Below, piece after piece: positions 13,477 to 50,700 of a stretch of DNA of 64,000 bases. Source of the stretch: Giardia intestinalis (taxonomy: Eukaryota); assembly GCA_000002435.2 (NCBI GenBank), contig CM018792.1; one strand, 5' to 3'. Both the position numbers and the translations under genes were made by a program. Position 1 is the stretch's first letter. Each line of letters begins with the position of its first letter. The notes under the pieces were generated by a model. That model was not told where the DNA came from, made no database searches, and saw nothing but the letters and a program-made list of their open reading frames with translations.

Positions 13477-15891
13477 TCAGTGAAAAAGGCTGAGCAGCTC
13501 CCTTGCCTCCGACGTCTTTGCAAAGGAGAGTGCGTTCTGCCCTCTAAAGTTGGTTATCTGGCCTTCCCGCGGAGCAAGAAGACGGAGAGACTCCAGGTTG
13601 TTCTTCTTGGCGGCTATCATACACGCACAGTACCCTTCACCCTCCTTATGACTGCAGTTACACACCATTCCAGCCTCCTTTTCTAACAGACCGACGACTA
13701 TGTTGTCTGCGTTTATCGTCGCAGCCGACATGAGGGCTGTCCATCCGTCATTCATGGCTAATCCCCCGTCACATGACATGAGCATAGCCGCCACGTTTAG
13801 ATGCCCATTCCCCAGGGCGTGCATAAGAGCAGTGCCCCCATTTTTGAGCTGCATTCCTCCCTCAAATGGAAGAAGAAGATTTGCAATCTCCTCGTGTCCT
13901 CGCTCAGCGGCATACATCAGGGCTGTTTTGCCCTCTGGGTCCTGGACGCGAGCAAACGAGATGACCAGCATCTTCGCTGCAGCGATATCATTCTCTATCG
14001 CCGCTCTCATAAGGCTAGTGAATCTTCCAGGTGTACTCCTGTCCTGAGGATGGTTCTGCTTATGGGATGCAATGAGATCCTCCACAGATATGGTCTCCTC
14101 CACTACCGGTAAAGTGCACTGCGTGCGCGCTACCGGGTCCTGTAGAGTGCTGTTCCGAAACCTGAGGGAGCTCACTAGGTCAGGGGCATTCCCCATAAGA
14201 GGCTGGCCGCCGATGAACGAGCTTGTAAGCCTCCTTCCTTCATCGTCAGGAATGGTAGTTGCTAGGGGAGGAACGATGGCAGACGCTGTAACGTTGGTCT
14301 TAGTTGCACGTTGAATTTCCTCCACCGTAGGAAGAGCGTCGTCTTCAAGAACCGCTACTGCTTTGCGAACAGCTTTGTTTTTAGACTGCGATTGTGCCCG
14401 ATGTGCATAAGGCCCAACAGGGTCTGTGCTTGATCGTATAATCTCGTTCGCCCGGTCTATGGCGACCTTATACTGGCTAGTGCGAGGATCATACTCGCTG
14501 GCAAGAATAGCGGTAGTAGAGGTTAAACCCTTATCGACAATACGCTGGGACGCCGTCAGCTTTTCAAGCCCCTTGTTTATTGCGTCACGTGGGCTATCTT
14601 TATACTTTTTGTTCATGTCAATGGTCCCCGAATTATTTGGATAGTCTTTGTATTCATAGTTGTCTGGAAGCAGTTTGGGAATTTCTGGTGTCTTCTTGAC
14701 TGATTCGTCTGCGAAGGCCGTGGCTGTGAACGATCCGGTGAGCTTCTCAAGGGGCTCCAAGGGAGTACGTGCTATCTGTGGAGGTTCTCGCCTGGGCATT
14801 GGCACCCCCATGTCCTCGTTCAGCTTCGTTTGACGAGACACATGACCCAGCGCATCTATGATGTCATCGATCGTGTCCCCAGCGTCGATGTCCTGGGAAG
14901 GCGGTGGTGAACGGAAGGAGTTGATCCCTAGGGGCGATGTAGGAAGCACGGCAGCAGTGACAGCAGCGTTAGGAGCAGAATCTGTGTCTGCAACGGAGAA
15001 GTTTGGCACCCGACTCAAGTGTGGACTCACAGGAGGACTTACGGAGCGAGAACGTGTAGTCGGAGAAAGACGCTCAGCCATATGCTCCCTAAGAAGTTCA
15101 TCTTTTGCTGCAAGAAGCTCATCAATACGCGCACAGTCCTCCGAGCGTGGATTGACAGGCACGCATCTGAAGCTCCCAGTGATCTGGCGCATCTCTTGGA
15201 CATGGTCGTCTGTGTGAAGAGACCCCTCGTCTGGAAAGTTAATTGATGTGTGGTCTGATTGAGGTTGAGAGCGAGCAGACGGGGTGTATCGCTGACTGAG
15301 ATGAACCCCCACCATAGAGCTAGTGCTCGAGTCCCCATACTCACGAAGCTTTTCATCAATGATCCCTATCATTTTTGAAGACAGACCGTGCTGCTCAGCA
15401 TAGGCTTTGGCGTTTGCTATGTCCTTGGGCGTCACCTTGCGATTGTTCAGTGCGTGCCTAAGGCACTCTTCGGACTCGCCAATAATGGCATGCTCAAGCA
15501 CAGAGAGGCCATCAAAATCCCGCTCCATACCGAAGAATATAGACAACGCATCCATTGCGCGGGCCTTTCCCAAACGTGCAGCAAGGTGATATGGATTCAT
15601 CCCATTTTCGATGAGGATTCCGCGCTCGTGAGGGCCAAGAGCCGTGCAGGTGTCGTAGTTATTTTGCTCAACTGCAATATGTATTGCCGCCTTTCCTGAG
15701 TTATCGGACTGCCTAACCTCATACGGGCAAAGCCTGGAAACAATGCGCGCGTGATTATTATAGGTGGCGATCATCAAAGCTGTTTCGCCCTTCTCGTTCT
15801 TAGATCCCGCAAAGGTGCCCATGCTCGTCAGTATGTATTGTTCGTCCCCAGTTCTGGCAGCGGCGAACCACTGCGCAAGCTCAGTACTCAT
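13477..15891 (-). CDS. Ankyrin-repeat protein (Protein 21.1 family). Start refined to the ATG at 15891.
   Basis: There is an N-terminal ankyrin repeat (ETALMIATYNNHARIV), a Ser/Pro-rich middle, and three C-terminal TALM repeats. The track start at 15909 is GTG. The stop TGA overlaps AGTAAAG. Confidence 0.85.
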   Translation of the reverse strand: MSTELAQWFAAARTGDEQYILTSMGTFAGSKNEKGETALMIATYNNHARIVSRLCPYEVRQSDNSGKAAIHIAVEQNNYDTCTALGPHERGILIENGMNPYHLAARLGKARAMDALSIFFGMERDFDGLSVLEHAIIGESEECLRHALNNRKVTPKDIANAKAYAEQHGLSSKMIGIIDEKLREYGDSSTSSMVGVHLSQRYTPSARSQPQSDHTSINFPDEGSLHTDDHVQEMRQITGSFRCVPVNPRSEDCARIDELLAAKDELLREHMAERLSPTTRSRSVSPPVSPHLSRVPNFSVADTDSAPNAAVTAAVLPTSPLGINSFRSPPPSQDIDAGDTIDDIIDALGHVSRQTKLNEDMGVPMPRREPPQIARTPLEPLEKLTGSFTATAFADESVKKTPEIPKLLPDNYEYKDYPNNSGTIDMNKKYKDSPRDAINKGLEKLTASQRIVDKGLTSTTAILASEYDPRTSQYKVAIDRANEIIRSSTDPVGPYAHRAQSQSKNKAVRKAVAVLEDDALPTVEEIQRATKTNVTASAIVPPLATTIPDDEGRRLTSSFIGGQPLMGNAPDLVSSLRFRNSTLQDPVARTQCTLPVVEETISVEDLIASHKQNHPQDRSTPGRFTSLMRAAIENDIAAAKMLVISFARVQDPEGKTALMYAAERGHEEIANLLLPFEGGMQLKNGGTALMHALGNGHLNVAAMLMSCDGGLAMNDGWTALMSAATINADNIVVGLLEKEAGMVCNCSHKEGEGYCACMIAAKKNNLESLRLLAPREGQITNFRGQNALSFAKTSEARELLSLFH

Positions 15892-15925
15892 TTTTAAAAT
15901 CCTTAACACCTTTAACTAAAGTGGT
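15892..15925. promoter_or_regulatory. 34-bp AT-rich bidirectional promoter between divergent genes.
   Basis: The sequence ttttaaaatccttaacacctttaactaaagtggt lies between ATGs on opposite strands. Confidence 0.5.
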
Positions 15926-16861
15926 ATGGACGATACCACACCAGACGTCCTTTTAGACAAGGCTGCAGAATACATTGAGAAACTCACTGATCAAGTGTCA
16001 CAACAGAAAGGCGAGATAGAACGTCTAGAGCTGGTTGTAAGGGAGCAGAGCATTCTGATGGACAGCATGGCTACACAGCTAAAGGATAATGAGATTGCAG
16101 AATCCATGGATGAAGGCACCTTCTCTAACCAGCAACAAAAGATTTCCGATTTGGAAACGGCAATAGAGGTGATGACGCTGGATTTGGAGTCTCGCTCAAA
16201 CAGTATTGTTGCTTTGTTCTCCCAGGTAAGTCATTTAAATGCCTTCATAACCAAGCTCCTCAACGCGTGTCTTACTGACCTGAACTCCGTGCAAATCATC
16301 GAGGACCTCCGACAGTTGTCTGTCAAGGCCAACCAACTCGAGGTGTCTATCTTAGAGATGGGACTGCCCTTATCTGAGTGTACAGGACCAGCGAGCCAGG
16401 ACCCTGCTGTCAGTGAGTCGGCTATCCATATTCCTCTCAAGTCGGAGTGTACGCAATCTCGCCCAAGCTCAGAGAAGGGTAGGCCAGAGGATGACGAGCT
16501 AGAGTATTACAAGAGGCGCTGTGCTGCGTTAGAGCACCAGGTGGAAACCCTGAGAGAGGCTTTACTCAGTCAGGAGGAGCTGTCTCGTCGCATTGTAACA
16601 ACAGCTCCTTCAAATCAACGATCAGCATCTGTATCAATAAAAGGAGACGCCCTATCGCCTTCATTTCGTCAACTAGCGCTTCTTGAGATGCTGCAGCTTG
16701 TCAACAAAGAACTTAGTAAAAGTCCCAAGGTCCACCTCAATACTGCATTCGATCCCGAACTGTCTACATCCCTGAAATCAGTGGCACTGGGAACCCCTGC
16801 AACAGCTCAGCAGCTTCATCACTTTCCCGAGACGTTTATGTGCCTCATGAGTGGAGTGTGA
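15926..16861 (+). CDS. Coiled-coil hypothetical protein.
   Basis: The 311-aa ORF has an ATG start and heptad-like E/L/Q-rich segments. No catalytic motif is recognised. Confidence 0.6.
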   Translation: MDDTTPDVLLDKAAEYIEKLTDQVSQQKGEIERLELVVREQSILMDSMATQLKDNEIAESMDEGTFSNQQQKISDLETAIEVMTLDLESRSNSIVALFSQVSHLNAFITKLLNACLTDLNSVQIIEDLRQLSVKANQLEVSILEMGLPLSECTGPASQDPAVSESAIHIPLKSECTQSRPSSEKGRPEDDELEYYKRRCAALEHQVETLREALLSQEELSRRIVTTAPSNQRSASVSIKGDALSPSFRQLALLEMLQLVNKELSKSPKVHLNTAFDPELSTSLKSVALGTPATAQQLHHFPETFMCLMSGV

Positions 16862-16889
16862 TTTATCGCATGATTACAAAACCAAAATC

Positions 16890-17177
16890 ATGTTGGCCGG
16901 TGGTTGGACTGAGCTAGCTCCAGCCGACGTCAACAGCAAGGTGCGCGAGGCGGCGGCTGCCAAGATCGCGGAGAGTGTGTCTGGTGCAACAATAGCTGAG
17001 GTTATCAAGGCCTCGTCACAGGTTGTCCGAGGCGTCAACACCATGCTTCTTACACGCCTCAGCACCGGAGCGCACTACATCGTAGTCGTGTGGTTTGATC
17101 TAAAGAATTATATTGTGACGACCCTGAAGGAATACACCGGCAACTTGGCTAATTTTACTTGGCCTATGCGGGAGTGA
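16890..17177 (+). CDS. Stefin-type (type 1) cystatin, a cysteine-protease inhibitor. Start refined to the ATG at 16890.
   Basis: The 95-aa product aligns along its whole length with stefins: an N-terminal Gly (MLAGGW), a PAD/PAT motif, the QVVRG hairpin (compare QVVAG), and a following GVNTMLLTRLSTGAHYIVVVWF beta-strand block. The track start at 16851 is GTG. Confidence 0.7.
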   Translation: MLAGGWTELAPADVNSKVREAAAAKIAESVSGATIAEVIKASSQVVRGVNTMLLTRLSTGAHYIVVVWFDLKNYIVTTLKEYTGNLANFTWPMRE

Positions 17178-17487
17178 CAGTAAATGCCTTGTAAATTGTG
17201 TTATCAGGCCGTTGCGGCTTCTTCTTGAGTCAGTCTGCAGTGGGGTGACTTCTGATTAGTGTGTGGATGACTCCCTGCTTTAAACCTCTGGGCTCCATCA
17301 AACAACTCCAGCCAACACATTTCTGTGGGTATGGCAGAAATTGCTGCCTCTCATTTTGGGCCCAAAAACAGAGCACCAGCCAGGAACTGATAAACGACGC
17401 TACTAACGGGTCTCATTGGAGGGTTGTTCAAAGCACTAGCTTATCTGTAGATCGTAACGTAAAGATTTCCAAGATGCCTTGATAAAA

Positions 17488-19737
17488 ATGAACAATAATC
17501 GGGGAGCATCCAGCGAGGAGACCGCACCTTCAGACGATGGCAACGAAAAGCTTTTGCAGGCCGTTATCAGTCAAGATATAAACGAACTCAAGTCACTCAT
17601 TGCAGCAGGAACCTGTTTGTGTAAGCAGGACAGGACCGGCATGACAGCTCTTATGCATGCAGCGGCTCAGGGCAGTATTCTAATGACAGGCATGTTGGTG
17701 GAGTACGAGAAGGGACTGAAAGATAGTAACGGAAAGATGGCTCTGCACCATGCCCTGAGAGGCGGCCATGTCGACGTTGCAGGGCTCCTTCTTTCATATG
17801 AAGACCCTCGGGATCGAAATGGCGTTACTGCACTGATGCGGGCCTCGGCCATTGGTGACATGGAGGTGGTTGTGCATCTTGTGAAGCTTCAGGGAGCCGT
17901 ACAGACCATCAATAGCGGATCTTATAAGCTTGAATCAGGCACTTACTCATTCAACGAAGGGGCAACGGCACTTATGTTTGCCGCGTGGTATGGGCAAAGC
18001 GAGGCAGCAAAGGTGTTACTAGGTCGTGAGAGCAGGATACGGGATAATGGCCGGTTGACTGCTCTTATGTATGCAGCAGAACGCGGTTACATCGAGGTAG
18101 TGAAAGAGCTGAGACCTAGGGAGTCCAGAATGCAGAACTGGCTCGGTAGAACTGCGCTTATGTTTGCTGCCCAAAATGGACATATGGATGTGGTCAGGTT
18201 ACTATTAGAAGACGAGAAGCAGATGGTGGATGGAAATGGCTGGACTGCTCTTATGTACGCGGCTTCTAATGGCCATGTTGAAATAGCTTGCTTACTGCTA
18301 GATCACGAGAAGTGTGTCCAAGATAATGATGGCTGGTCGGCGCTCATGTTCGCTGCATATTATGGATACACAGATATGGTAGGGCTGTTATTAAGTGAGG
18401 AAAAGGGACTTAGAGATAGCAAGGGTCGAACCGCCCTTATGCACGCCGCAGAAAAGGGAAATGTTGATGCAGTTAAGCTACTTGTGGGATATGAAGCGCG
18501 TGCACAAACATATGCGGAATATACTGCTCTTATGCTTGCTGCATACGCCAACCATGCAGAGGTTGCAACGGTGCTCCTGCCTTATGAAGGAGGAATGCAG
18601 ACCACAATTGGCTGGACTGCTCTTATGGAGGCTGCACTGTATGGCCACACTGAAGTAATTTCCGTGCTCATGCAATGTGAAGGTGGGTTGCACAGGAATG
18701 ATGGATGCACCGCCCTCATATACACTGCATACGAGGGGCAAGAGGAGATGGTGAAGCTTCTTTTCGATCTCGAAAGGGAGTCCTCCGGATGGACTAAACT
18801 GATGTATGCGGCAAGCTTGGGACTCACAGCCACTGCTGGTGCCCACTTAAGCGATGCTGGACAGCAGGACAATATTGGGCTTACTGCGCTTATGTATGCA
18901 GTCAGGAACTGCCGGACAGAAATGGTTAAGTTATTAGCAACACACGAGTGTGGATTTCAAGATAGTGGTGGTTGGACAGCGTTGATGCATGCAACACTTT
19001 GTGGGTATCGAGATCTTATCAGGCCCTTGCTTTGTGAAGCCGGTTCTCAGTCGTTGGTAGCCCATCGAAACTATCCTCCTGGGACCACCGCCTTAATGAT
19101 AGCAGCCTACCAGAATGATGCATATACTGTGGATTTGCTTGCTTCACTAGAAGCAGGATTTCTCAATTCGGACGATGACTGTGCACTGATTCTTGCACTA
19201 CAGAATGCCAGCGCAGAGTGCATCCCCTTGTTACTCTGTGAATTGTCTGTCCTTGATAGCCACGGCAAAGCATGCTACTTTAGGATTCACACACTCGATA
19301 TAGATGAATCCCCCAAGCTTACCTTGCTTTATGAACGCCTCCGGGACACGCTCAAGACAATGTTCTTTTCAGGACTTCAGAAGGAGCGGCTGGCTTGCTT
19401 GTTAACTGCACTAACTCGCTCTGTCAGCTCCCTGATTACCTCAGGCCATTTCCTCTTAGAACTTATGTGGGCAGCCCTACTCTGCGAATACGACAATGTC
19501 ATTACCGACCTTGATGAACAGTTTGTTCTGATCGAAGATGCGTATATAGAAGATACGTGTGCGATCTGCCTGACTCGTCCTCCTGATTGTGTTCTCTTGC
19601 CGTGTCGACACTTGATTGTTTGCTTGGCATGTGTTGATCGTATTTACGCAAACAAGTCATGCTGCAAGTGTCCCTATTGCCGCACACCCATTGAAACTAT
19701 ACTTGACCTTGCGGAGTGTAATTTTACTCTGTTATAA
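17488..19737 (+). CDS. Ankyrin-repeat protein with a C-terminal Mind-bomb-type RING finger. Start refined to the ATG at 17488.
   Basis: About 15 TALM ankyrin repeats precede CAICLTRPPDCVLLPCRHLIVCLACVDRI...CCKCPYCRTPI. The track start at 17479 is TTG. Confidence 0.85.
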   Translation: MNNNRGASSEETAPSDDGNEKLLQAVISQDINELKSLIAAGTCLCKQDRTGMTALMHAAAQGSILMTGMLVEYEKGLKDSNGKMALHHALRGGHVDVAGLLLSYEDPRDRNGVTALMRASAIGDMEVVVHLVKLQGAVQTINSGSYKLESGTYSFNEGATALMFAAWYGQSEAAKVLLGRESRIRDNGRLTALMYAAERGYIEVVKELRPRESRMQNWLGRTALMFAAQNGHMDVVRLLLEDEKQMVDGNGWTALMYAASNGHVEIACLLLDHEKCVQDNDGWSALMFAAYYGYTDMVGLLLSEEKGLRDSKGRTALMHAAEKGNVDAVKLLVGYEARAQTYAEYTALMLAAYANHAEVATVLLPYEGGMQTTIGWTALMEAALYGHTEVISVLMQCEGGLHRNDGCTALIYTAYEGQEEMVKLLFDLERESSGWTKLMYAASLGLTATAGAHLSDAGQQDNIGLTALMYAVRNCRTEMVKLLATHECGFQDSGGWTALMHATLCGYRDLIRPLLCEAGSQSLVAHRNYPPGTTALMIAAYQNDAYTVDLLASLEAGFLNSDDDCALILALQNASAECIPLLLCELSVLDSHGKACYFRIHTLDIDESPKLTLLYERLRDTLKTMFFSGLQKERLACLLTALTRSVSSLITSGHFLLELMWAALLCEYDNVITDLDEQFVLIEDAYIEDTCAICLTRPPDCVLLPCRHLIVCLACVDRIYANKSCCKCPYCRTPIETILDLAECNFTLL

Positions 19738-25989: not shown

Positions 25990-27168
25990 ATGGCTGATCG
26001 TTTGAAATCGATAATGGAACATGCCCCGGCTTGCAACGCTGCAGAGGAGCCTTCTGTTCTGGAAAACGTCCCTGGGTATGGATCTGTCCTAAAGCAGACC
26101 AGATCTTTTCTTGACCGGCGGACACGACGGTCTCCATATCGACCAGAAACAGCTAGACTTTACTCACATCGGCAGAGAGATGGGCTGATTATCCCTCTAT
26201 CGAGCGGCCCTGATCAAGCCACTAGCCCATCTACTAACACCCCCAAGTCCAACAGGCCCAGCTCAGCAGCATCTGTTTTGCCCCCTGATGTCGAGGCCTC
26301 TCTTACCTGTCTCCTTGCAGCTGCCAAGTCTTTCAGTACAGTTATGACACACTATGACATTAACGACCTGACCAGAATTCGCGAGGCTTCTGCGAGCTTC
26401 AAGGATATTAAGCATGAGGACATAAGCACTGGTGCCTTATACAAGCGACATATGGAGACCACACGTGACCTTTCTCTGTCCAATTTGTATCCCACAAAAT
26501 GTTCTGCAAACTCAGACGGCAAGCTAAGTTTGAGTCGTCCAACACATACTTTTAGCTTACTACGGGCATCTAGTAAGTACCATGCCGATAACAAAAGCCA
26601 TACACAATTGGAAGCCCTACAATATGAGATTGATCAATCCACAAAGAAGTGTAAGAGCGACTTTCAAGCGTTAGTACTGCCCACAGACAAGACCGAAATA
26701 GAAAGCCGGCACTTTCCGGCCATAAGTTTTTCCTTGACAAGTGCCTCATCCACAGAAGCGTCAGATATGGCCAAAATGGAACGGCTAGGCACCTTGCTCC
26801 TATCTGAGCGTGTACCAGCCATTATTTTGGGAAGACATGACTTCTCACTCGCACGGAAATTGGTTGCCCTTGAGCTGGATACTGTTTCCATGGACTGCCA
26901 GATCCTAATTTATACACTGAAAACACAGACAAAGATGGGCTCCGTTAAACTCTATGAGGTGGTAACCCCCCAGCGAGCGTTAAATGACACCAGTATAGAT
27001 TTACTGGGCACATATGGCGTATCACTCTTCGATCTTAACGTCATGAAAACACCTGACATGACTGAGCTCATAGAGTTTAAAGGGTCGGGCTCTATGTTTG
27101 CTCTCCTGCTCTCTGGACAACATGCCAGATTGTTACTTACTATGCTTGATAAGGTTCTAGTTAAATAG
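25990..27168 (+). CDS. Hypothetical protein.
   Basis: The ORF has an ATG at 25990 (the track start at 25984 is TTG). No recognised domain. The 3' end overlaps the convergent WD40 gene by 12 bp. Confidence 0.5.
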   Translation: MADRLKSIMEHAPACNAAEEPSVLENVPGYGSVLKQTRSFLDRRTRRSPYRPETARLYSHRQRDGLIIPLSSGPDQATSPSTNTPKSNRPSSAASVLPPDVEASLTCLLAAAKSFSTVMTHYDINDLTRIREASASFKDIKHEDISTGALYKRHMETTRDLSLSNLYPTKCSANSDGKLSLSRPTHTFSLLRASSKYHADNKSHTQLEALQYEIDQSTKKCKSDFQALVLPTDKTEIESRHFPAISFSLTSASSTEASDMAKMERLGTLLLSERVPAIILGRHDFSLARKLVALELDTVSMDCQILIYTLKTQTKMGSVKLYEVVTPQRALNDTSIDLLGTYGVSLFDLNVMKTPDMTELIEFKGSGSMFALLLSGQHARLLLTMLDKVLVK

Positions 27169-28293
27169 ATCCCGCTCTTCAATGGAGATGCGCCACATGT
27201 TAATATAGCCATCATCACCTCCGCTGCACACAACAATATGTCCATCGGTGCCGGCGAATTGCGTGACATCACAGACAGCATTAACCTCACCGTCATGTGC
27301 GCCAGTAATGCAAACTATCGGGGCTGCGGTCCCCGTGGCGATGTTTATGACAGAGAGACAAACCGCACCATCTTGTCCTACTGTGGCAACATATGTACTA
27401 AGTGCTTTTGACGTGCTCTTCGGCTCCGCCAAGGATATGTCATAAATTGGCCGCTGCCCGTGCAGGATAGTGCATCCTGTCTGTTTAACACCACCCTCAA
27501 CGATACTATAACAGCGAACACATCCATTTCCATCAACTGTTAGTATAGAGTTACCGTTAGCTGTGAAGATTGCAGTCCAAACGGTGTGGCAAGAGGACTT
27601 GGATGCCAGTATTTCGGAATCGGGTGCATTTAGTTCACAAGAGTTCAGATCAAGTTCAGATTTGGTTGCTCCTGCTAACACCCATGATTCTATCTCTTCT
27701 TCCCCAAGTTCGTCTGCCACCTCTATGCAACGTTTGTAGAGACAGATATTGTTGTCATAGGATGCAGAAACTAGATAAGTTCCATTTCTATTAAAACGAA
27801 CACACTTGATGTCTTCTGTGTGGTTGTTGAAAAGACCTATGCAGTCATAATCTGGGGAGTCGGAGCACGGCCGCCAAAACGACACGAAGCGGTCTCTGCT
27901 GCAAGTCGCCACCGTTCCCTCTTTAGATATATCAATTGACTTGATCTCCTTCTCGTGTGCATTGGCTATAACAGCTGTAGGCTGAAACGGATCGTCCTGA
28001 GTCAGTTCGTTAACTAAATCATACACATATATGGATCCGTCGTAGGCAGCGACAACCAGATGCTGATCGTTAGCAGAGAAAGCGCAATCCCGGACAGTGA
28101 TTGGGTCACCGTGACCGGGTCGTAGACGTTGCACTGGCTGCAGAGATAGGTCCTTTGACACCCTCCATATCGCTACACTGCCGTCCGAGGAGCATGACGC
28201 TACAAGCTCTCCGGTGTGCGAAGCCCGCAGCCTCCAAATTCTGTCGGTATGGGCAGCAGTATGGTTCAAGAGAGAAACTCTATCACTCACCAT
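27157..28293 (-). CDS. CIA1: WD40 beta-propeller protein with high similarity to cytosolic iron-sulfur assembly component CIA1/CIAO1.
   Basis: Seven WD-like blades are present. Blocks AHTDRIWRLRASHTGELVASCSSDGSVAIWR, GHGDPITVRDCAFSANDQHLVVAAYDGSIYVY and NAHEKEIKSIDISKEGTVATCSRDRFVSFW...HTEDIKCVRFNRNGTYLVSASYDNNICLYK are collinear with CIAO1 blades 1-4. The start is ATG. Confidence 0.7.
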   Translation of the reverse strand: MVSDRVSLLNHTAAHTDRIWRLRASHTGELVASCSSDGSVAIWRVSKDLSLQPVQRLRPGHGDPITVRDCAFSANDQHLVVAAYDGSIYVYDLVNELTQDDPFQPTAVIANAHEKEIKSIDISKEGTVATCSRDRFVSFWRPCSDSPDYDCIGLFNNHTEDIKCVRFNRNGTYLVSASYDNNICLYKRCIEVADELGEEEIESWVLAGATKSELDLNSCELNAPDSEILASKSSCHTVWTAIFTANGNSILTVDGNGCVRCYSIVEGGVKQTGCTILHGQRPIYDISLAEPKSTSKALSTYVATVGQDGAVCLSVINIATGTAAPIVCITGAHDGEVNAVCDVTQFAGTDGHIVVCSGGDDGYINMWRISIEERDLFN

Positions 28294-31982: not shown

Positions 31983-32039
31983 AGCTTTTTCCGCGCTGCG
32001 ACCTGTCTAAGACTTGTGAACCTGTAGGCACCTGTAAAG

Positions 32040-32112
32040 TGCTTCCGGTGGGGATCGAACCCACAGCCTTCGCAACGTAAATGCGACGCGCTAACCATTG
32101 CGCCACGAAAGC
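32040..32112 (-). tRNA. tRNA-Val(UAC): tRNA-Val, anticodon UAC.
   Basis: The 73-nt sequence GCTTTCGTGGCGCAATGGTTAGCGCGTCGCATTTACGTTGCGAAGGCTGTGGGTTCGATCCCCACCGGAAGCA folds by hand into a cloverleaf. The acceptor stem is 7 bp (including one G-U), the D stem GCGC/GCGC, the anticodon stem TCGCA/TGCGA with loop TTTACGT, and the T stem GTGGG/CCCAC with a GTTCGATCC T-loop. Confidence 0.8.
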
Positions 32113-43406: not shown

Positions 43407-44501
43407 ATGGTGCTAGACAGGGCCTCTGATATTGTCACAGCCGCGACGACGTCCAACGATGCGCTCCTTAGTAAGCTTTCGGCGCTCAGAGCAGGCTACC
43501 TAGTGGATCCTGCACTTCGGGCAATCTATACCAAGCCCTCCCTTCCTCGTAAAGACCCGATGATAAATAGGGGCACGTGGTTTCGGTTCACTTACATCGA
43601 GCAGATGGCAGTGGCTTTTGCGGCTAAGTATGCTGGAAACTGTGCAATTGTTAGTCTTGGAGCCGGTCTCGACACTCTTTACTGGCGTTTACAGCTCATC
43701 GCACAACAAGAAAGGAGCGAAGGGAAGCAAAGTTATTTCCATGTCAAGCACTGGATTGAACTGGACCTGCCATCAATTACAGAACTCAAAGCAAAGAAGT
43801 TTGACCTTATGCACGGGGAAACTATTGACATGCCTATGTCTGAGGACTGTGCTGTCCGGCCATTTCAGGAGGGCCAGGTAATTCTGTATCGTCCCAAAAG
43901 GGAGCATGCCGAAACTACCCCAGAGGCACTGCGCGTCGATCTGCCGGGCTATCAGCTTTATGCGGCCAATCTGGAAATGCGTAAGACATGGATGCCGCTG
44001 GTGCGAAAGATTGTAGCAGACGAAAAAGGGGATACGACGCTGCCCGTGCTCTTCTTGTCTGAGGTGTGCTTGTCGTACTTAGACGCCGACTCGACCGTAG
44101 GCATCATACGGGACCTTCCAACCTATTTCAACAATTTTGGGCTTGTCTGCTTTGAGATGGTCAACCCTTCAGACTCATTTGGGGAGATGATGCAGATCAA
44201 CATGGCAGAGCGTCAAGTCGTTATGCCCTCATTTGTGGAGCTGGGCTTTACGGCTCAGTATCGTAAGCTCTTCCAGCTGAGCGGCTATGAAGCCTCGTAT
44301 GCTAAAGAGGCGGGGGATGTGTATCGCAGCTTTTGGCCAGCTAGACGCCGCGAGATAGAACAGCTCGAGCTCTTTGATGAGTTTGAGCAATGGAATCTGA
44401 TTATGGGGCACTACGCATGTATAATGGGGTGGACCGGCATCGAGAATCTCGAGGAGATGCTGGCGTCTGTTGGGCAAAGCGCAGATTCCCCCGACAAGTA
44501 A
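43407..44501 (+). CDS. LCMT1: Leucine carboxyl methyltransferase (the PP2A C-subunit methyltransferase, LCMT1/PPM1 family).
   Basis: [38 protein letters not shown]...[16 protein letters not shown] matches the LCMT1 blocks [37 protein letters not shown]...QIVNLGAGMDTTFWRL. Downstream blocks LSEVCLSYL and [18 protein letters not shown] also match. AGTAAAT overlaps the TAA stop at 44497-44503. Confidence 0.85.
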
Positions 44502-44532
44502 ATATTCACTAGCGAGAATTTACGTTTATTGC

Positions 44533-45870
44533 ATGGTCAGTTGTGTCGACAAGATCTTCTGCACCGCGTGTTGCAAGGCTCGGATTCGAGGATGTACAGT
44601 TTGTGCACAGAAATTCCTTGCGTATCTAATTTTTGGTCTTATACTTGCAGCTAATTTGGCGGGTGTAGTTGAGATATCAATTCTCTGGAAGCGGCCAGAG
44701 GTGGTTATACCCTTCCTTGTTGTGATTGGATACGCTTTGATCGTTGTCTCTGTACACTTCTGTTTCGCTGTGTGGCTTGACCCGGGATTCACAACACCTT
44801 CGTATGGAGGTATTCGGCGCAAGTGCTTGATCTGCGATAAAGCCAAGCCGATACGCGCACACCACTGTAAAATATGCAATCGATGCGTCCTTAAGTACGA
44901 TCACCATTGTCCTTGGATTGGGAACTGCGTTGGTCTCAATAACTACGGACACTTCTGGTGCTTTCTGCTCTGGGCCATCATTACGCAATGTCTTTGTATA
45001 CTCTATAACGTCCTGGGAACGGTCTTTGTTTTTCAGCTTCTTGTCGCCTATCTACCGATTGTTTCTATTGTTGTGGCTGCAATTGTAATCGCTGGTATAT
45101 CGATTCTCTTCAACATGCACGTCATTATGATACGCAACAACATGACCACTATCGAGTACTTCAAATGGAAGGATTCCAAAGCAAGTCTGCAGCACTATAC
45201 GAATCACTATACTCTCGGTTCTTCAGGAGCTAATATTGCACAGGTCATATCACCTATTTGGGCAATAGGGGTTCCGTGGCGCATTCGACCAAGGCACTCT
45301 GGATTGTGGACATACTGTTACGATCAAAATGTTGAGCTGGCTGTGCCAAAGGTAGAGACCAATCACTCTATTGAAGTTATGCACACACCTCAGCTATTTA
45401 CAAAGCAACTAGACGCCAATCCAACTGTACAGTTGGAGCCCACCGTTACAGCATCGATCACTCATAACGCGATGCCTAGTAATGCTAGAACATACCCCCA
45501 GCCTGTGAACGCACGCAAAAGACGGCATGAGCCTCCTAGAACATCGGTGCGGTTAGATGTTATGGGGCCATACACCATAGGGTCACTAAACTACCCGAGT
45601 TCTACCATAAACAATCCTACTACTCTCTCCCTTTATGCGTCTAGACCAAGAACCTCTGAATCAATTATTACAGCATCGTCAAGACCATCGTCAGCGGCAC
45701 CAAGTCGTGTAACTACTCCGCCGGTCATTCAAATGGACCCCATGGCCTACCACAGTAATAGCTTTTCTTCTCCTTCAAGAGTGGTCGCTTTTTCTCCTTC
45801 CAAAAGCCCAACCACTCAACCTAGATCACCGAACATATTCGATAGAATTGTCCAGGGTCTGGAAAATTGA
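44533..45870 (+). CDS. DHHC-type protein S-acyltransferase (palmitoyltransferase). Start refined to the ATG at 44533.
   Basis: Four transmembrane segments flank the DHHC-CRD block [48 protein letters not shown]. The track start at 44470 is TTG and would overlap LCMT1. Confidence 0.85.
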
Positions 45871-46824: not shown

Positions 46825-47772
46825 CTACTCCTGTTCTGGTTCGGCAGAGAGCGCCTGTATCTTTGCATCTATATCAGCAATTAGATCCTCGGCCACATTT
46901 TCTTCCAGATAGATATCCTTTACCTGAAGAAGGGCCTCCTTCGCGTCTTCATATTCTCCTGCCAAGTTATAGCACCATGCCAGGTCATGAAGTGCAACGG
47001 CATCTTTAGGGTTCTGTGCAAGTACTAGATCGCAGCACATGGCACCCTGTTCGTACATTCCCACTCCGGCGCATATCCGCGAGAGGGCCAGAAGAAACTG
47101 CTGTGTTGGCTGATTTTCATCTGAATGAACGGTGATCTCTTCCGAACCGTCCTCCGCCTGCTCAATTTTGTAGAATCCACGCTGCTCCATTAGTTCAAGA
47201 GCACACAAGGCTGCTTTTTCAGCCAGGTCGAATGATTCTGCTACAAGGTGCGCCCCAGCAAGACTTATATGAGGCTCAATAAAAGATGGGTTCATGCTGA
47301 TTGCTTCCTTTGCTGTCCTGATCGCGGCCTTAGTGTCTGGCGGGTCAAGACGAGTTAGATACGCATCCGCAAGTGTTGCCAGAGCTAATATTAGCGAGGT
47401 ACGAGACTCTTCTGTACTTGTGTGCTTTCTAAAGATACCTATTGCCGAATTCAGATTAGATGGATCACCTGTGATCTCATAGAGGGTCATGTATCGGACC
47501 CCAGCGGCATGAGTTAGGTGATCGTACCCAAGCGCCTTGGCATAGCAACTAGTTGCTTTCTGAAAATCTCCAGCAACGCTGAAAATTTCGCCAAGCGAGT
47601 CAAGCACAGATGGCTGATTGCAAAGGGGAAGCGCACGCTCTGCAATAGTAAGAGCTTTAGCAAAATTTCCCGCTTCCAGTTTTGCGTATGCTTGAGTAAT
47701 CAGTTCACTCACAGCCCCCTGTGGTGGTTGTGGCTTGCGTTTCACTGTATTATGCTGTCGAGCCTTGCCCAT
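46825..47772 (-). CDS. TPR-repeat protein with a basic N-terminus and an acidic C-terminus.
   Basis: The 315-aa product has an ATG start and at least six TPR-like 34-aa helical pairs with A/L/G/Y spacing (...AKALGYDHLTHAAG..., ...AIRTAKEAISMNPSF..., ...HDLAWCYNLAGEYEDAKEAL...). Confidence 0.65.
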   Translation of the reverse strand: MGKARQHNTVKRKPQPPQGAVSELITQAYAKLEAGNFAKALTIAERALPLCNQPSVLDSLGEIFSVAGDFQKATSCYAKALGYDHLTHAAGVRYMTLYEITGDPSNLNSAIGIFRKHTSTEESRTSLILALATLADAYLTRLDPPDTKAAIRTAKEAISMNPSFIEPHISLAGAHLVAESFDLAEKAALCALELMEQRGFYKIEQAEDGSEEITVHSDENQPTQQFLLALSRICAGVGMYEQGAMCCDLVLAQNPKDAVALHDLAWCYNLAGEYEDAKEALLQVKDIYLEENVAEDLIADIDAKIQALSAEPEQE

Positions 47773-50700
47773 GGTTCAATTATTTGAATTTAATCAAAGC
47801 GTCACCAAAATATGATGTGAGACCCAGCTGTGCCGAACACACAAAGCCAACATATCATCCTATCATAAATAGATTCTGACATATCGCTAGGTGGGCATCG
47901 TTCTTGAATATATCGTTTCAAGCATTTTAAGGTACTGTTTTTAGTGGACAGAACAACACGTATACCTCTTTTAGGTCAACAGTGACTTTACAATGCTCAC
48001 CATATCGACCATTGTTCAGTACTTAAAAAGCCGACGCACCCTTCTCTGCTATCGTGCAGCTGAGGATCACATCGGGATACAGCTCTTGTTCTAAGGAAGA
48101 GCCGGGCTGCACTTGTCCTGTATACTTGCGCAGCACAGAGAGCCTTGCAAGTCGTGGTGCTGGACCATGTAGTGCGCTGTTTTGCTTTCTTGCATGGACT
48201 GCGGGGCTTATGCAAGAAAGTTGATGGCAGGAAACGTGTACACACTGGCGCTTATATCGTTCCGCTTGATACAAGGCAGCAAGGACGCGTTTTTGTACAC
48301 ACAGTCTAGGATTAATGGCTAAGTACCTTCACACATTGCGTGCCCTGATTTCTGCTTGCTATGGGCCTGTCTGAGCTCTACAACCCTCTGAAGAGAGAGC
48401 TAATCTACCTAACGTTAGCCAAGGCCGCATTCTGACGCTGATAAGCTGGCCACTGACTCACCAATCAACAGCACATGCCACCTTGCACTTCTACCCATAG
48501 AAGCTGCATCTCGGTGTTCTGCTTAACCATAATGTACGGCCTCTCTGCAAGACACGCGTTCCCTGTCTCGGCGCAGCCATAGTAGGATCTGTGGTCAAAT
48601 GCGTAGAAGAACGTACCCAAAAGGTATCGTCTCGGCTCTCCATCTACTGTGATGCGTACTAGCATATGCCAAGTAACTAGTTCATGCGTATCTGTAAGAG
48701 TCTTCAGATACCGCGTAGATATGCGCAGAAGTACTTAACCCTGCCCGTACAGCGCGGCCCCTAGATCACAGATCTTTGCAAACAACCTGGACCGCTATCA
48801 CATGTGCTTCTCCGAGCAAGAAGGCAGTACCTCGGGCTCGCCTAAAAGTACCGCTATGGATCAGCAATCCTTTAAGGAGTGTCTCGCTAGCATCACACGT
48901 GCCTATTGATGGGTGGTTTGTACATCCGTGATATGGCTGTTCTTGTACCTCCAATTACTTCGAGAAAGAACCAGGGAGCGCTCCTTGCGGATTACAGCCG
49001 TGCCACATCAAGCATGCGGCCGCACACCCTTCCAACGTGAGTGACGCACACCGCTGAGACCCATGCACGTTGCTCCGCGGTGTTGCATTGGCACGCAAGT
49101 AGGCTATTCTGAAGACTGCAAACTGTTTCAAGCACCCTGTTACTCCATTCCATATCTTGCAGACGCGCCACAGCGGACGCTTTCACAGATGCCTATAGCA
49201 GAGGAGCTCCTTCGAAGCAAGGGTTGCCTGAAGGTCTTTCTTTATATTGAGGTGACTTGCTAGCCAGCTGGTATAGGCGTCGAAGGAGCCCCATACCTCG
49301 CCTCGGCGATATACCCACCTGCGCACTCGCCGCCCTTCAAGCCTGCCTGCGCTCCCAACGAACTCGGCGAAGGTGGGCAGCAGGCGCGCTGGGAAAGTTC
49401 GGCACCCCGTGTTCCCACGACGTCTCCGATCGCAGTACTGGCGGGGCCTGACGGCGCTTCTCTTCTTAATTCGGAACGAGTTAATTCGGAACGAGTTAAG
49501 GAGTTTCCGCCGTAGGATGGCCGAACTGGCGGCCGGTGGGGCTGTGCAATGCACAAAAGACTTGAGCTTGTAAATCTAGCTTGTTACAATTGGTTTATCG
49601 CCGGGGCTGTGTACAAGGGCCGAATGATCGAAATGGGATAAGCGGAGCGGTCTCTTGTCGATGAAGGAGATAGTGCCCGAGGCAGTGCTGGAGTCGTTCT
49701 CGAGGGCAAACATCTGGACACAGCCGCCAACATGCGACCCCTGCCAACCAGCACACGGAATTTGGTCGATAAGCTGACTGGGCAGCATGCATCTAGGGGA
49801 TTAGCGTTTACCAAAGGACCACATGCAGCCTCTTGAATAGATGAGATGTCGCGTTTGGGTCGAAGGCAGTTGGGCAGCTTCTAGCCCCCAGAGTGCTAAC
49901 CAGTGCCCTGTAAGCTGTCTTGCTAGCACTTGCCTTTCTGCACCCACTGATTGCGGTGTGTCGAACGGATAGCTTCTAGAAGGTAATGCCAGATTCAGGA
50001 GGGATCACCGCGGAGCCCTTCTGCACATGCTTAGTCAATTAAGGGGTACTACTACGATGTGTATCACATGCTATAGCCAGTTACGCCAGCATGGGAGGCT
50101 AGCCATGTCTGGGAAGTAGTAGCTAGTGACACGGTCGACTGCCGGCCATGAGAGCTCCGCGGGGCTGTTCTACTGCGGCTCCATCCTTACACAGAAGGTG
50201 CTGCTATGGGCTAGGATGCGCTGCAGTCCATCAAAGCTTGATGGCGAGAGTCTCGATGAAGACAGAGACATGCGTGTTCTAAGAGCTGGTCCTGCTTCTA
50301 TTGGTACCTTATCATGCGCTGCTCTCCGTGAAGCAATAGGACTGCATGCCGGGAGCTTCATTTATATATACACATAACAAAGCAGGAGCGAGTCGTTCTC
50401 TTGGCTGCTGATCAATGACCCCTCTGTAGCCTACGTCGATCCGGTGGCGAGCCGGCTATTGAAGCTTCCTGTGTCCAATACTAATACTGCCTACGACGGG
50501 CGCCATACTAGCCAAGAATTTGGATAAACAATACCACGATTCATGGGTACGGAGAGTGGCTAGATCGCGTGACTATGCCTTCCAGTTCTCTACTCACCGC
50601 TGGCTGCGCACCAGCTATCTTGGATGCCACAAGAAAAGAGATCAAGCGTTATGCTCTCATTACAAGTATCTCTACGTGGCTCAACAGAATACCTGCCCCG

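What the first reader, a model, noticed from the sequence alone, without database searches (positions are those of the whole stretch)
16890..17177. Stefin-type cystatin hidden behind a GTG-initiated track ORF
The 95-aa product has all three stefin inhibitory elements in order: an N-terminal Gly, the QxVxG hairpin (QVVRG), and the second hairpin region. It aligns end-to-end with human stefin A/B. Giardia secretes abundant cathepsin-B-like cysteine proteases, so an endogenous stefin is a plausible regulator. The supplied ORF call starts 39 nt upstream on GTG and overlaps the preceding gene, so a standard ORF caller could mis-annotate or miss it.
Basis: partly seen in the sequence, partly recalled or inferred. 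Interest (0 to 1): 0.5.

Follow-up and report, generated by a model that had tools for sequence, protein, structure and literature searches.

The report
Known Giardia cystatin gene, correctly spotted

Summary
The ORF at 16890-17177 (+) is real and encodes 95 aa. Its product is identical, residue for residue, to XP_001705664.1 / KAE8304357.1 / UniRef A8BPS7, "Cystatin [Giardia intestinalis WB C6]". It is the same sequence as EAA37282, shown as the Giardia cystatin by Kordis & Turk 2009. A review identifies it as GL50803_27918 and cites Liu, Svard & Klotz 2019. [quoted passage not shown]

The ATG at 16890 is the true start. The 39-nt GTG extension is not conserved among assemblages, and all orthologues are 95 aa.

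"Stefin-type" holds for architecture (short, no signal peptide, no Cys). Published phylogeny instead places it in the cystatin lineage. Verdict: already known, low interest.

The parts
16890..17177 (+). Cystatin coding sequence (95 codons plus TGA), gene GL50803_27918
   Evidence: Translation. Exact identity to XP_001705664.1 'Cystatin [Giardia intestinalis]'. Six orthologues are all 95 aa. Substitutions are biased to third codon positions.
16899..16913 (+). N-terminal inhibitory segment G4-G5-W6-T7-E8 (motif GGW[ST]E)
   Evidence: G4 and G5 are invariant and W6 nearly invariant in the 27-sequence alignment A5. They align to Gly4-Gly5 of human stefin A.
17019..17033 (+). First hairpin loop motif QVVRG (residues 44-48)
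   Evidence: Q44, V45, V46 and G48 are invariant in A5. In the confident model the motif ends strand 35-45 and forms the turn before strand 49-57. It aligns to QVVAG of stefin A and QIVAG of cystatin C.
17088..17108 (+). Second hairpin region V67-W68-F69-D70-L71-K72-N73
   Evidence: V67, W68 and L71 are invariant in A5. The model places the loop 70-73 between strands 62-69 and 74-82. hhalign puts W68-F69-D70-L71-K72 on stefin A F70-K71-S72-L73-P74.
17136..17174 (+). G. duodenalis-specific C-terminal tail (residues 83-95, TGNLANFTWPMRE)
   Evidence: T83, G84, L86, F89, W91, P92 and E95 are invariant among the six G. duodenalis orthologues. The tail is absent from P0018, P0020, P0044 and the bacterial relatives. 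The last 10-residue block has mean pLDDT 66. Function unknown.
16862..16889 (+). 28-nt spacer with an A-rich stretch (AAAACCAAAATC) directly before the ATG; probable initiator and very short 5' UTR
   Evidence: The AAAATC/AGAATC-ATG context is conserved in five loci while the rest of the spacer carries 1-nt and 8-nt indels. Short 5' UTRs and AT-rich initiators in Giardia are established knowledge, not tested here.
16851..16889 (+). Spurious GTG-initiated 13-codon extension of the mechanical ORF call
   Evidence: ORF list. Among the orthologous loci, the same in-frame GTG extension is present only in L007; in L004-L006 indels change the upstream reading frame and no in-frame ATG, GTG or TTG precedes the ATG.
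17179..17185 (+). AGTAAAT, a match to the Giardia polyadenylation consensus AGTRAAY, 1 nt after the stop codon
   Evidence: It is invariant in all five orthologous loci although its distance from the stop varies through indels. The motif is not enriched in the window as a whole (30 observed, 29.5 expected), so the evidence is position and conservation, not count.

Best explanation
This is the single-copy cystatin gene of Giardia intestinalis assemblage A (WB), GL50803_27918. It encodes a 95-residue, cysteine-free, leaderless, single-domain cystatin-fold protein. Like other cystatins, it most likely acts as a tight, reversible, competitive inhibitor of papain-like (clan CA, family C1) cysteine proteases. 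It would do so by inserting a three-part wedge into the protease active-site cleft: the N-terminal Gly4-Gly5 segment, the QVVRG first hairpin, and the W68..L71 second hairpin. Its probable main role is to restrain the parasite's own abundant cathepsin B/L-like proteases in the cytoplasm, with a possible additional role at the host interface. Shown here: the identity of the gene, its start and end, its conservation, its homology to cystatins, and its fold. Taken from the literature: inhibition of papain and of giardial CP14019, CP16160 and CP16779, weak inhibition of human cathepsin B, cytoplasmic location, and up-regulation by host soluble factors. Inferred: the wedge binding mode for this particular protein.
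Against: Pfam PF00031 does not detect the protein even at E<=10. Direct phmmer against PDB gives only marginal cystatin hits (E 0.19-0.29), with a flavodoxin ranked above them. The first structure model, built from 6 near-identical sequences, was poor (pLDDT 60). I could not read the primary biochemical paper and rely on how other papers describe it. The second loop lacks both the canonical PW of type-2 cystatins and the LP of stefins. The R in QVVRG is unusual, since A or S is commoner.
Confidence: 0.96

Rival explanations
1. The true product is the 108-aa form that starts at GTG 16851. It would overlap the upstream gene by 11 nt and carry a 13-residue N-terminal extension (VECDLSHDYKTKI) ahead of the inhibitory Gly.
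For: The mechanical ORF list gives this form. One draft annotation carries it (ESU35648.1, DHA2_27918, 108 aa). The extension is also open in assemblage E P15.
Against: The DHA2 entry starts with V and is flagged 'partial', so it is not a real start call. In three other assemblage-level orthologues the spacer has 1-nt or 8-nt indels, the in-frame upstream codons are unrelated, and they contain no ATG, GTG or TTG. All six orthologues are called at 95 aa. Relative P0020 also starts directly at M-x-x-G-G-W. GTG initiation is a rule of bacterial table 11, not a known feature of Giardia nuclear genes (established knowledge). An extension would bury the N-terminal segment, which aligns from Met1 with stefin A.
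Confidence: 0.02
2. It has the cystatin fold but is not mainly a protease inhibitor. Many cystatin-fold proteins (monellin, CRES, fetuins, latexin, SQAPI, NTF2-like proteins) have lost or changed this activity.
Against: All three inhibitory elements are invariant across relatives that share only 22-44% identity. The literature reports direct inhibition of papain and three giardial proteases.
Confidence: 0.02

Closest known systems
Giardia intestinalis cystatin GL50803_27918 (XP_001705664.1, EAA37282; Kordis & Turk 2009; Liu, Svard & Klotz 2019)
   Same: Identical over all 95 residues. Same locus and neighbours as in public Giardia assemblies.
   Different: Nothing. It is the same gene.
Human stefin A / stefin B (type 1 cystatins, MEROPS I25A; PDB 1dvc, 1stf)
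   Same: About 95-98 aa, no signal peptide, no disulfides. The alignment is collinear from Met1, with Gly4(-Gly5), QVVxG and the L2 Leu (L71 on Leu73) in register.
   Different: Only 20-25% identity over the N-terminal 53-71 residues, and 5.3 and 3.6 bits against the Giardia profile. R replaces A in QVVAG. L2 is WFDLK rather than FKSLP. The C-terminal tail is unrelated. Published phylogeny does not place it among stefins.
Type 2 cystatins (chicken cystatin, human cystatin C, E/M; MEROPS I25B)
   Different: No signal peptide, no cysteines and hence no disulfides, and no PW dipeptide. hhalign covers only 58 columns, from the N-terminus through strand beta3, and stops before the second hairpin.
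Secreted single-domain cystatins of Novosphingobium (Alphaproteobacteria) and unnamed metagenomic relatives
   Same: They share the signature GGW[ST]E ... QVV[RA]G.N ... VW..L at 22-44% identity. After three unnamed eukaryote-like sequences, they are the nearest per-domain relatives: most score 23-39 bits, though three score only 6-7.
   Different: The bacterial proteins carry N-terminal signal-peptide-like extensions, have QVVAG rather than QVVRG, and lack the Giardia C-terminal tail.

Membership tests
Cystatin superfamily (MEROPS I25, Pfam clan Cystatin) | Cystatin fold: a five-stranded antiparallel beta-sheet wrapped around one alpha-helix, in the order beta1, alpha, beta2, L1, beta3, beta4, L2, beta5 | tested here: met
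Cystatin superfamily (MEROPS I25, Pfam clan Cystatin) | Conserved Gly in the N-terminal segment | tested here: met
   G4 and G5 are invariant in 27 sequences and align to stefin A Gly4-Gly5.
Cystatin superfamily (MEROPS I25, Pfam clan Cystatin) | QxVxG motif at the first hairpin loop | tested here: met
   QVVRG at residues 44-48 is the only such match. Q, V, V and G are invariant. The motif lies at the beta2-beta3 turn in the model.
Cystatin superfamily (MEROPS I25, Pfam clan Cystatin) | Hydrophobic or aromatic second hairpin loop (PW in type 2, LP in stefins) | tested here: inconclusive
   V67, W68 and L71 are invariant and sit at the beta4-beta5 turn. L71 aligns with stefin A Leu73. Neither the PW nor the LP dipeptide is present.
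Cystatin superfamily (MEROPS I25, Pfam clan Cystatin) | Significant match to the family sequence model (Pfam PF00031) | tested here: not met
   No Pfam family matches at E<=10. Homology is supported indirectly: the Giardia profile hits PF00031 proteins at E down to 8.4e-15, 19 of 27 alignment members match PF00031, and hhalign gives 96.9% against stefin A.
Cystatin superfamily (MEROPS I25, Pfam clan Cystatin) | Tight reversible inhibition of papain-like C1 cysteine proteases | not testable with these tools
   Reported for this gene by Liu et al. 2019, as described in PMC10454693 and PMC11959277. The primary paper is not held.
Stefins (type 1 cystatins, I25A) | Single domain of about 100 aa without a signal peptide | tested here: met
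   The protein is 95 aa, and the conserved GG motif begins at residue 4, which leaves no room for a leader. No dedicated signal-peptide predictor was available.
Stefins (type 1 cystatins, I25A) | No disulfide bonds | tested here: met
   The protein has zero cysteines.
Stefins (type 1 cystatins, I25A) | Phylogenetic placement within the stefin lineage rather than the cystatin lineage | tested here: inconclusive

The most novel reading that the evidence does not exclude
The Giardia cystatin may not be a relic of the ancestral eukaryotic cystatin, as Kordis & Turk proposed. It may instead belong to a compact GGW[ST]E / QVV[RA]G / VW..L subfamily shared with secreted cystatins of Novosphingobium and other bacteria, and may have reached the Giardia lineage (or left it) by inter-domain gene transfer. 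Three observations are consistent with this. Among diplomonads the gene is reported only from Giardia spp. (PMC11437800). Its nearest named per-domain relatives are bacterial. An earlier paper remarked that it is closer to bacterial equivalents. The direction of any transfer, and even its reality, are untested. Three unnamed eukaryote-like homologues (P0018, P0020, P0044; one sits next to actin and RPS4 genes) are closer still and may simply be other Giardia-like species.
Probability: 0.2. Interest if true: 0.3.

Novelty: already known. Interest (0 to 1): 0.08.

Why it matters
For discovery it matters little. The gene has been recognised as a cystatin since 2009, is annotated as such in the reference genome, and was characterised biochemically in 2019.

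The case has methodological value in three ways:
- A tool-less reader can recognise a highly divergent cystatin that Pfam misses.
- "No Pfam hit" is an unsafe refutation criterion for small, fast-evolving inhibitor domains.
- A bacterial-code ORF track (GTG/TTG starts) systematically over-extends Giardia genes.

Biologically, the protein is relevant as the only known endogenous regulator of Giardia's cathepsin-type virulence proteases.

Tried and rejected
- Pfam hmmscan of the 95-aa and 108-aa forms gave no cystatin hit.
- phmmer and a 6-sequence profile against PDB gave only marginal cystatin hits (E 0.19-0.31), with a flavodoxin ranked first in the single-sequence search, so neither was usable alone.
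- The primary paper (doi 10.1002/1873-3468.13433) is not held.
- The search for related loci with the broad alignment A5 failed because it has no conserved 7-10 column stretch. I repeated it with the bacterial subset.
- AGTRAAY is not enriched window-wide, so I do not use its count as evidence.
- The exact-sequence look-up of P0018, P0020, P0044 and the actin encoded next to P0020 returned no names, so their organisms remain unidentified.
- The antisense 63-aa ORF at 16874-17065 and the 73-aa ORF at 17261-17482 are mechanical ORFs with no supporting evidence. I did not pursue them.

Full report
**Observation.** Window 16890-17177 (+) translates to a 95-residue protein followed by TGA: MLAGGWTELAPADVNSKVREAAAAKIAESVSGATIAEVIKASSQVVRGVNTMLLTRLSTGAHYIVVVWFDLKNYIVTTLKEYTGNLANFTWPMRE. 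The mechanical bacterial-code ORF list gives instead 16851-17177, 108 aa, starting on GTG. That ORF overlaps the preceding 311-aa ORF (15926-16861) by 11 nt.

**Identity.** An exact-sequence look-up shows the 95-aa protein is identical to KAE8304357.1, XP_001705664.1 and UniRef100_A8BPS7. These are named "Cystatin", from Giardia intestinalis ATCC 50803 / WB clone C6, and the sequence is seen on 170 contigs.
- The same sequence appears as "Giardia lamblia (EAA37282) cystatin" in the supplementary alignments of Kordis & Turk 2009 (PMC2784779).
- Emery et al. 2016 (PMC4751611) call it GL50803_27918 and found the protein up-regulated by host soluble factors.
[quoted passage not shown] It cites Liu, Svard & Klotz, FEBS Lett 2019. 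PMC11959277 summarises that paper the same way.
- I could not read the primary paper.
- The window is Giardia on independent grounds. It carries a VSP gene (PF03302, E 8.6e-81), and the cystatin is flanked by ankyrin-repeat genes in the same order as in public Giardia assemblies.

**Start and end of the gene.** Six orthologues from G. duodenalis assemblages (79-92% identical) are all 95 aa. I fetched four orthologous loci, all syntenic.
- The ATG and the A-rich bases just before it are conserved. The 28-36-nt spacer carries indels of 1 and 8 nt.
- Only L007 keeps the same in-frame GTG extension as the window. In the other three loci, the in-frame codons upstream of the ATG are unrelated and contain no ATG, GTG or TTG.
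- The 108-aa form therefore comes from the table-11 "first start after a stop" rule.
The DHA2 draft annotation holds a 108-aa "hypothetical protein, partial" beginning VECDLSHDYKTKIM. The reference annotation and the gene callers on public contigs give 95 aa.
- One nucleotide after the stop lies AGTAAAT, a match to the Giardia polyadenylation consensus AGTRAAY (consensus from established knowledge). It is invariant in all five loci even though its distance from the stop changes. The motif is not enriched window-wide, so only its position and conservation count.
- Substitutions between orthologues are strongly biased to third codon positions (e.g. 16/7/57), which shows purifying selection on this frame.

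**Is it a cystatin? Independent tests.**
- Pfam finds nothing, even at E<=10. Direct searches against PDB sequences give only marginal cystatin hits.
- A profile of the six orthologues, searched against 1.84 billion representatives, finds 33 proteins at E<=1e-3. All ten that I scanned match Pfam Cystatin PF00031 at E<=0.01, seven above its gathering score. They include an 8-domain "multicystatin-like" abalone protein.
- A second word-indexed search gave 28 mostly single-domain relatives. In the 27-sequence alignment A5, the invariant columns are G4, G5, Q44, V45, V46, G48, V67, W68 and L71. These are exactly the N-terminal segment, the first hairpin and the second hairpin of the cystatin wedge.
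- 19 of the 27 members match PF00031. The Giardia members do not.
- hhalign of A5 against human stefin A gives 96.9% probability (E 1.5e-10). Giardia 1-73 aligns to stefin 1-76, with L71 on stefin Leu73. Against cystatin C it gives 94.2%.
- AlphaFold with A5 gives pLDDT 87.6 and pTM 0.75, with strands 7-9, helix 16-29, and strands 35-45, 49-57, 62-69 and 74-82. This is the cystatin topology, with QVVRG at the first turn and residues 70-73 at the second.

**Mechanism.** From established structural knowledge of cystatin-papain complexes (e.g. stefin B-papain, 1STF), the three conserved elements form a wedge that occupies the active-site cleft of C1 proteases without being cleaved. That this particular protein binds in this way is inferred. 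That it inhibits papain and giardial proteases comes from the literature. No C1 protease gene lies next to it in the window.

**Stefin or cystatin?** By architecture it is stefin-like: 95 aa, no room for a leader, zero cysteines.
- Pairwise similarity to human stefins is weak: 25% over 71 residues for stefin A and 20% over 53 for stefin B. So "end-to-end" overstates it.
- Kordis & Turk list diplomonads as lacking stefins and having cystatins, and regard the Giardia protein as resembling the ancestral form. A later review calls it a stefin. My tests do not discriminate between the two.
- Per domain, the nearest relatives outside G. duodenalis are three unnamed eukaryote-like sequences at 54 bits: P0018, P0044 and P0020. 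P0020 lies beside actin and RPS4 genes.
- Next come secreted cystatins of Novosphingobium, most at 23-39 bits, found on contigs of up to 702 kb and in one isolate genome.
- Human stefin A, stefin B and cystatin C score 5.3, 3.6 and 7.1 bits.
- Among diplomonads the gene is reported only from Giardia spp.. This leaves room for an inter-domain transfer scenario, which I did not test.

**Verdict.** The gene is already known, annotated and biochemically characterised, so novelty is nil and interest is low.

Noticed in passing
window 17479-19737 (+), 13477-15909 (-): The bacterial-code ORF list over-extends other Giardia genes to TTG or GTG as well. It gives 752 aa from TTG where public gene calls give 749 aa, and 810 aa from GTG where they give 804 aa. 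The cystatin mis-start is a systematic track artefact, not a peculiarity of this gene.
   Followed up: partly
window 16859-16889 and 15926-16861 (+): Only 28 nt separate the stop of the upstream 311-aa coiled-coil gene from the cystatin ATG. No AGTRAAY occurs on the + strand between that stop and the cystatin's own signal at 17179. The cystatin promoter must therefore overlap the upstream coding region. The upstream transcript either uses a non-consensus poly(A) signal or reads into the cystatin gene.
   Followed up: no
window 17136-17174 (residues 83-95): The C-terminal tail TGNLANFTWPMRE has invariant T83, G84, L86, F89, W91, P92 and E95 in all six G. duodenalis orthologues. It is absent from every more distant relative and is modelled with low confidence. 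Function unknown.
   Followed up: partly
L008:5001-5249, L009:126-431: These are unnamed homologues at 34-39% identity. P0020 (82 aa) lies on a 66-kb contig beside actin, RPS4 and a prenyltransferase. P0018 and P0044 (101 aa) carry an N-terminal hydrophobic extension that looks like a signal peptide. They may be cystatins of other Giardia-like organisms, some of them secreted. The source organisms are not identified.
   Followed up: partly
L010-L018: A family of signal-peptide-bearing single-domain cystatins occurs in Novosphingobium genomes and MAGs. They share the Giardia signature GGWSE / QVVAG / VW.KL.
   Followed up: partly
window 49394-49528 (-), 32039-32112 (-): A 5S rRNA gene (Rfam 76 bits) and a tRNA-Val(TAC) gene.
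   Followed up: no
window 52154-53356 (+), also 27157-28293 (-), 43407-44501, 44470-45870, 46825-47772 (-): A variant-specific surface protein gene (PF03302, E 8.6e-81), plus WD40, leucine carboxyl methyltransferase, DHHC palmitoyltransferase and TPR genes. This is ordinary Giardia chromosomal context.
   Followed up: no
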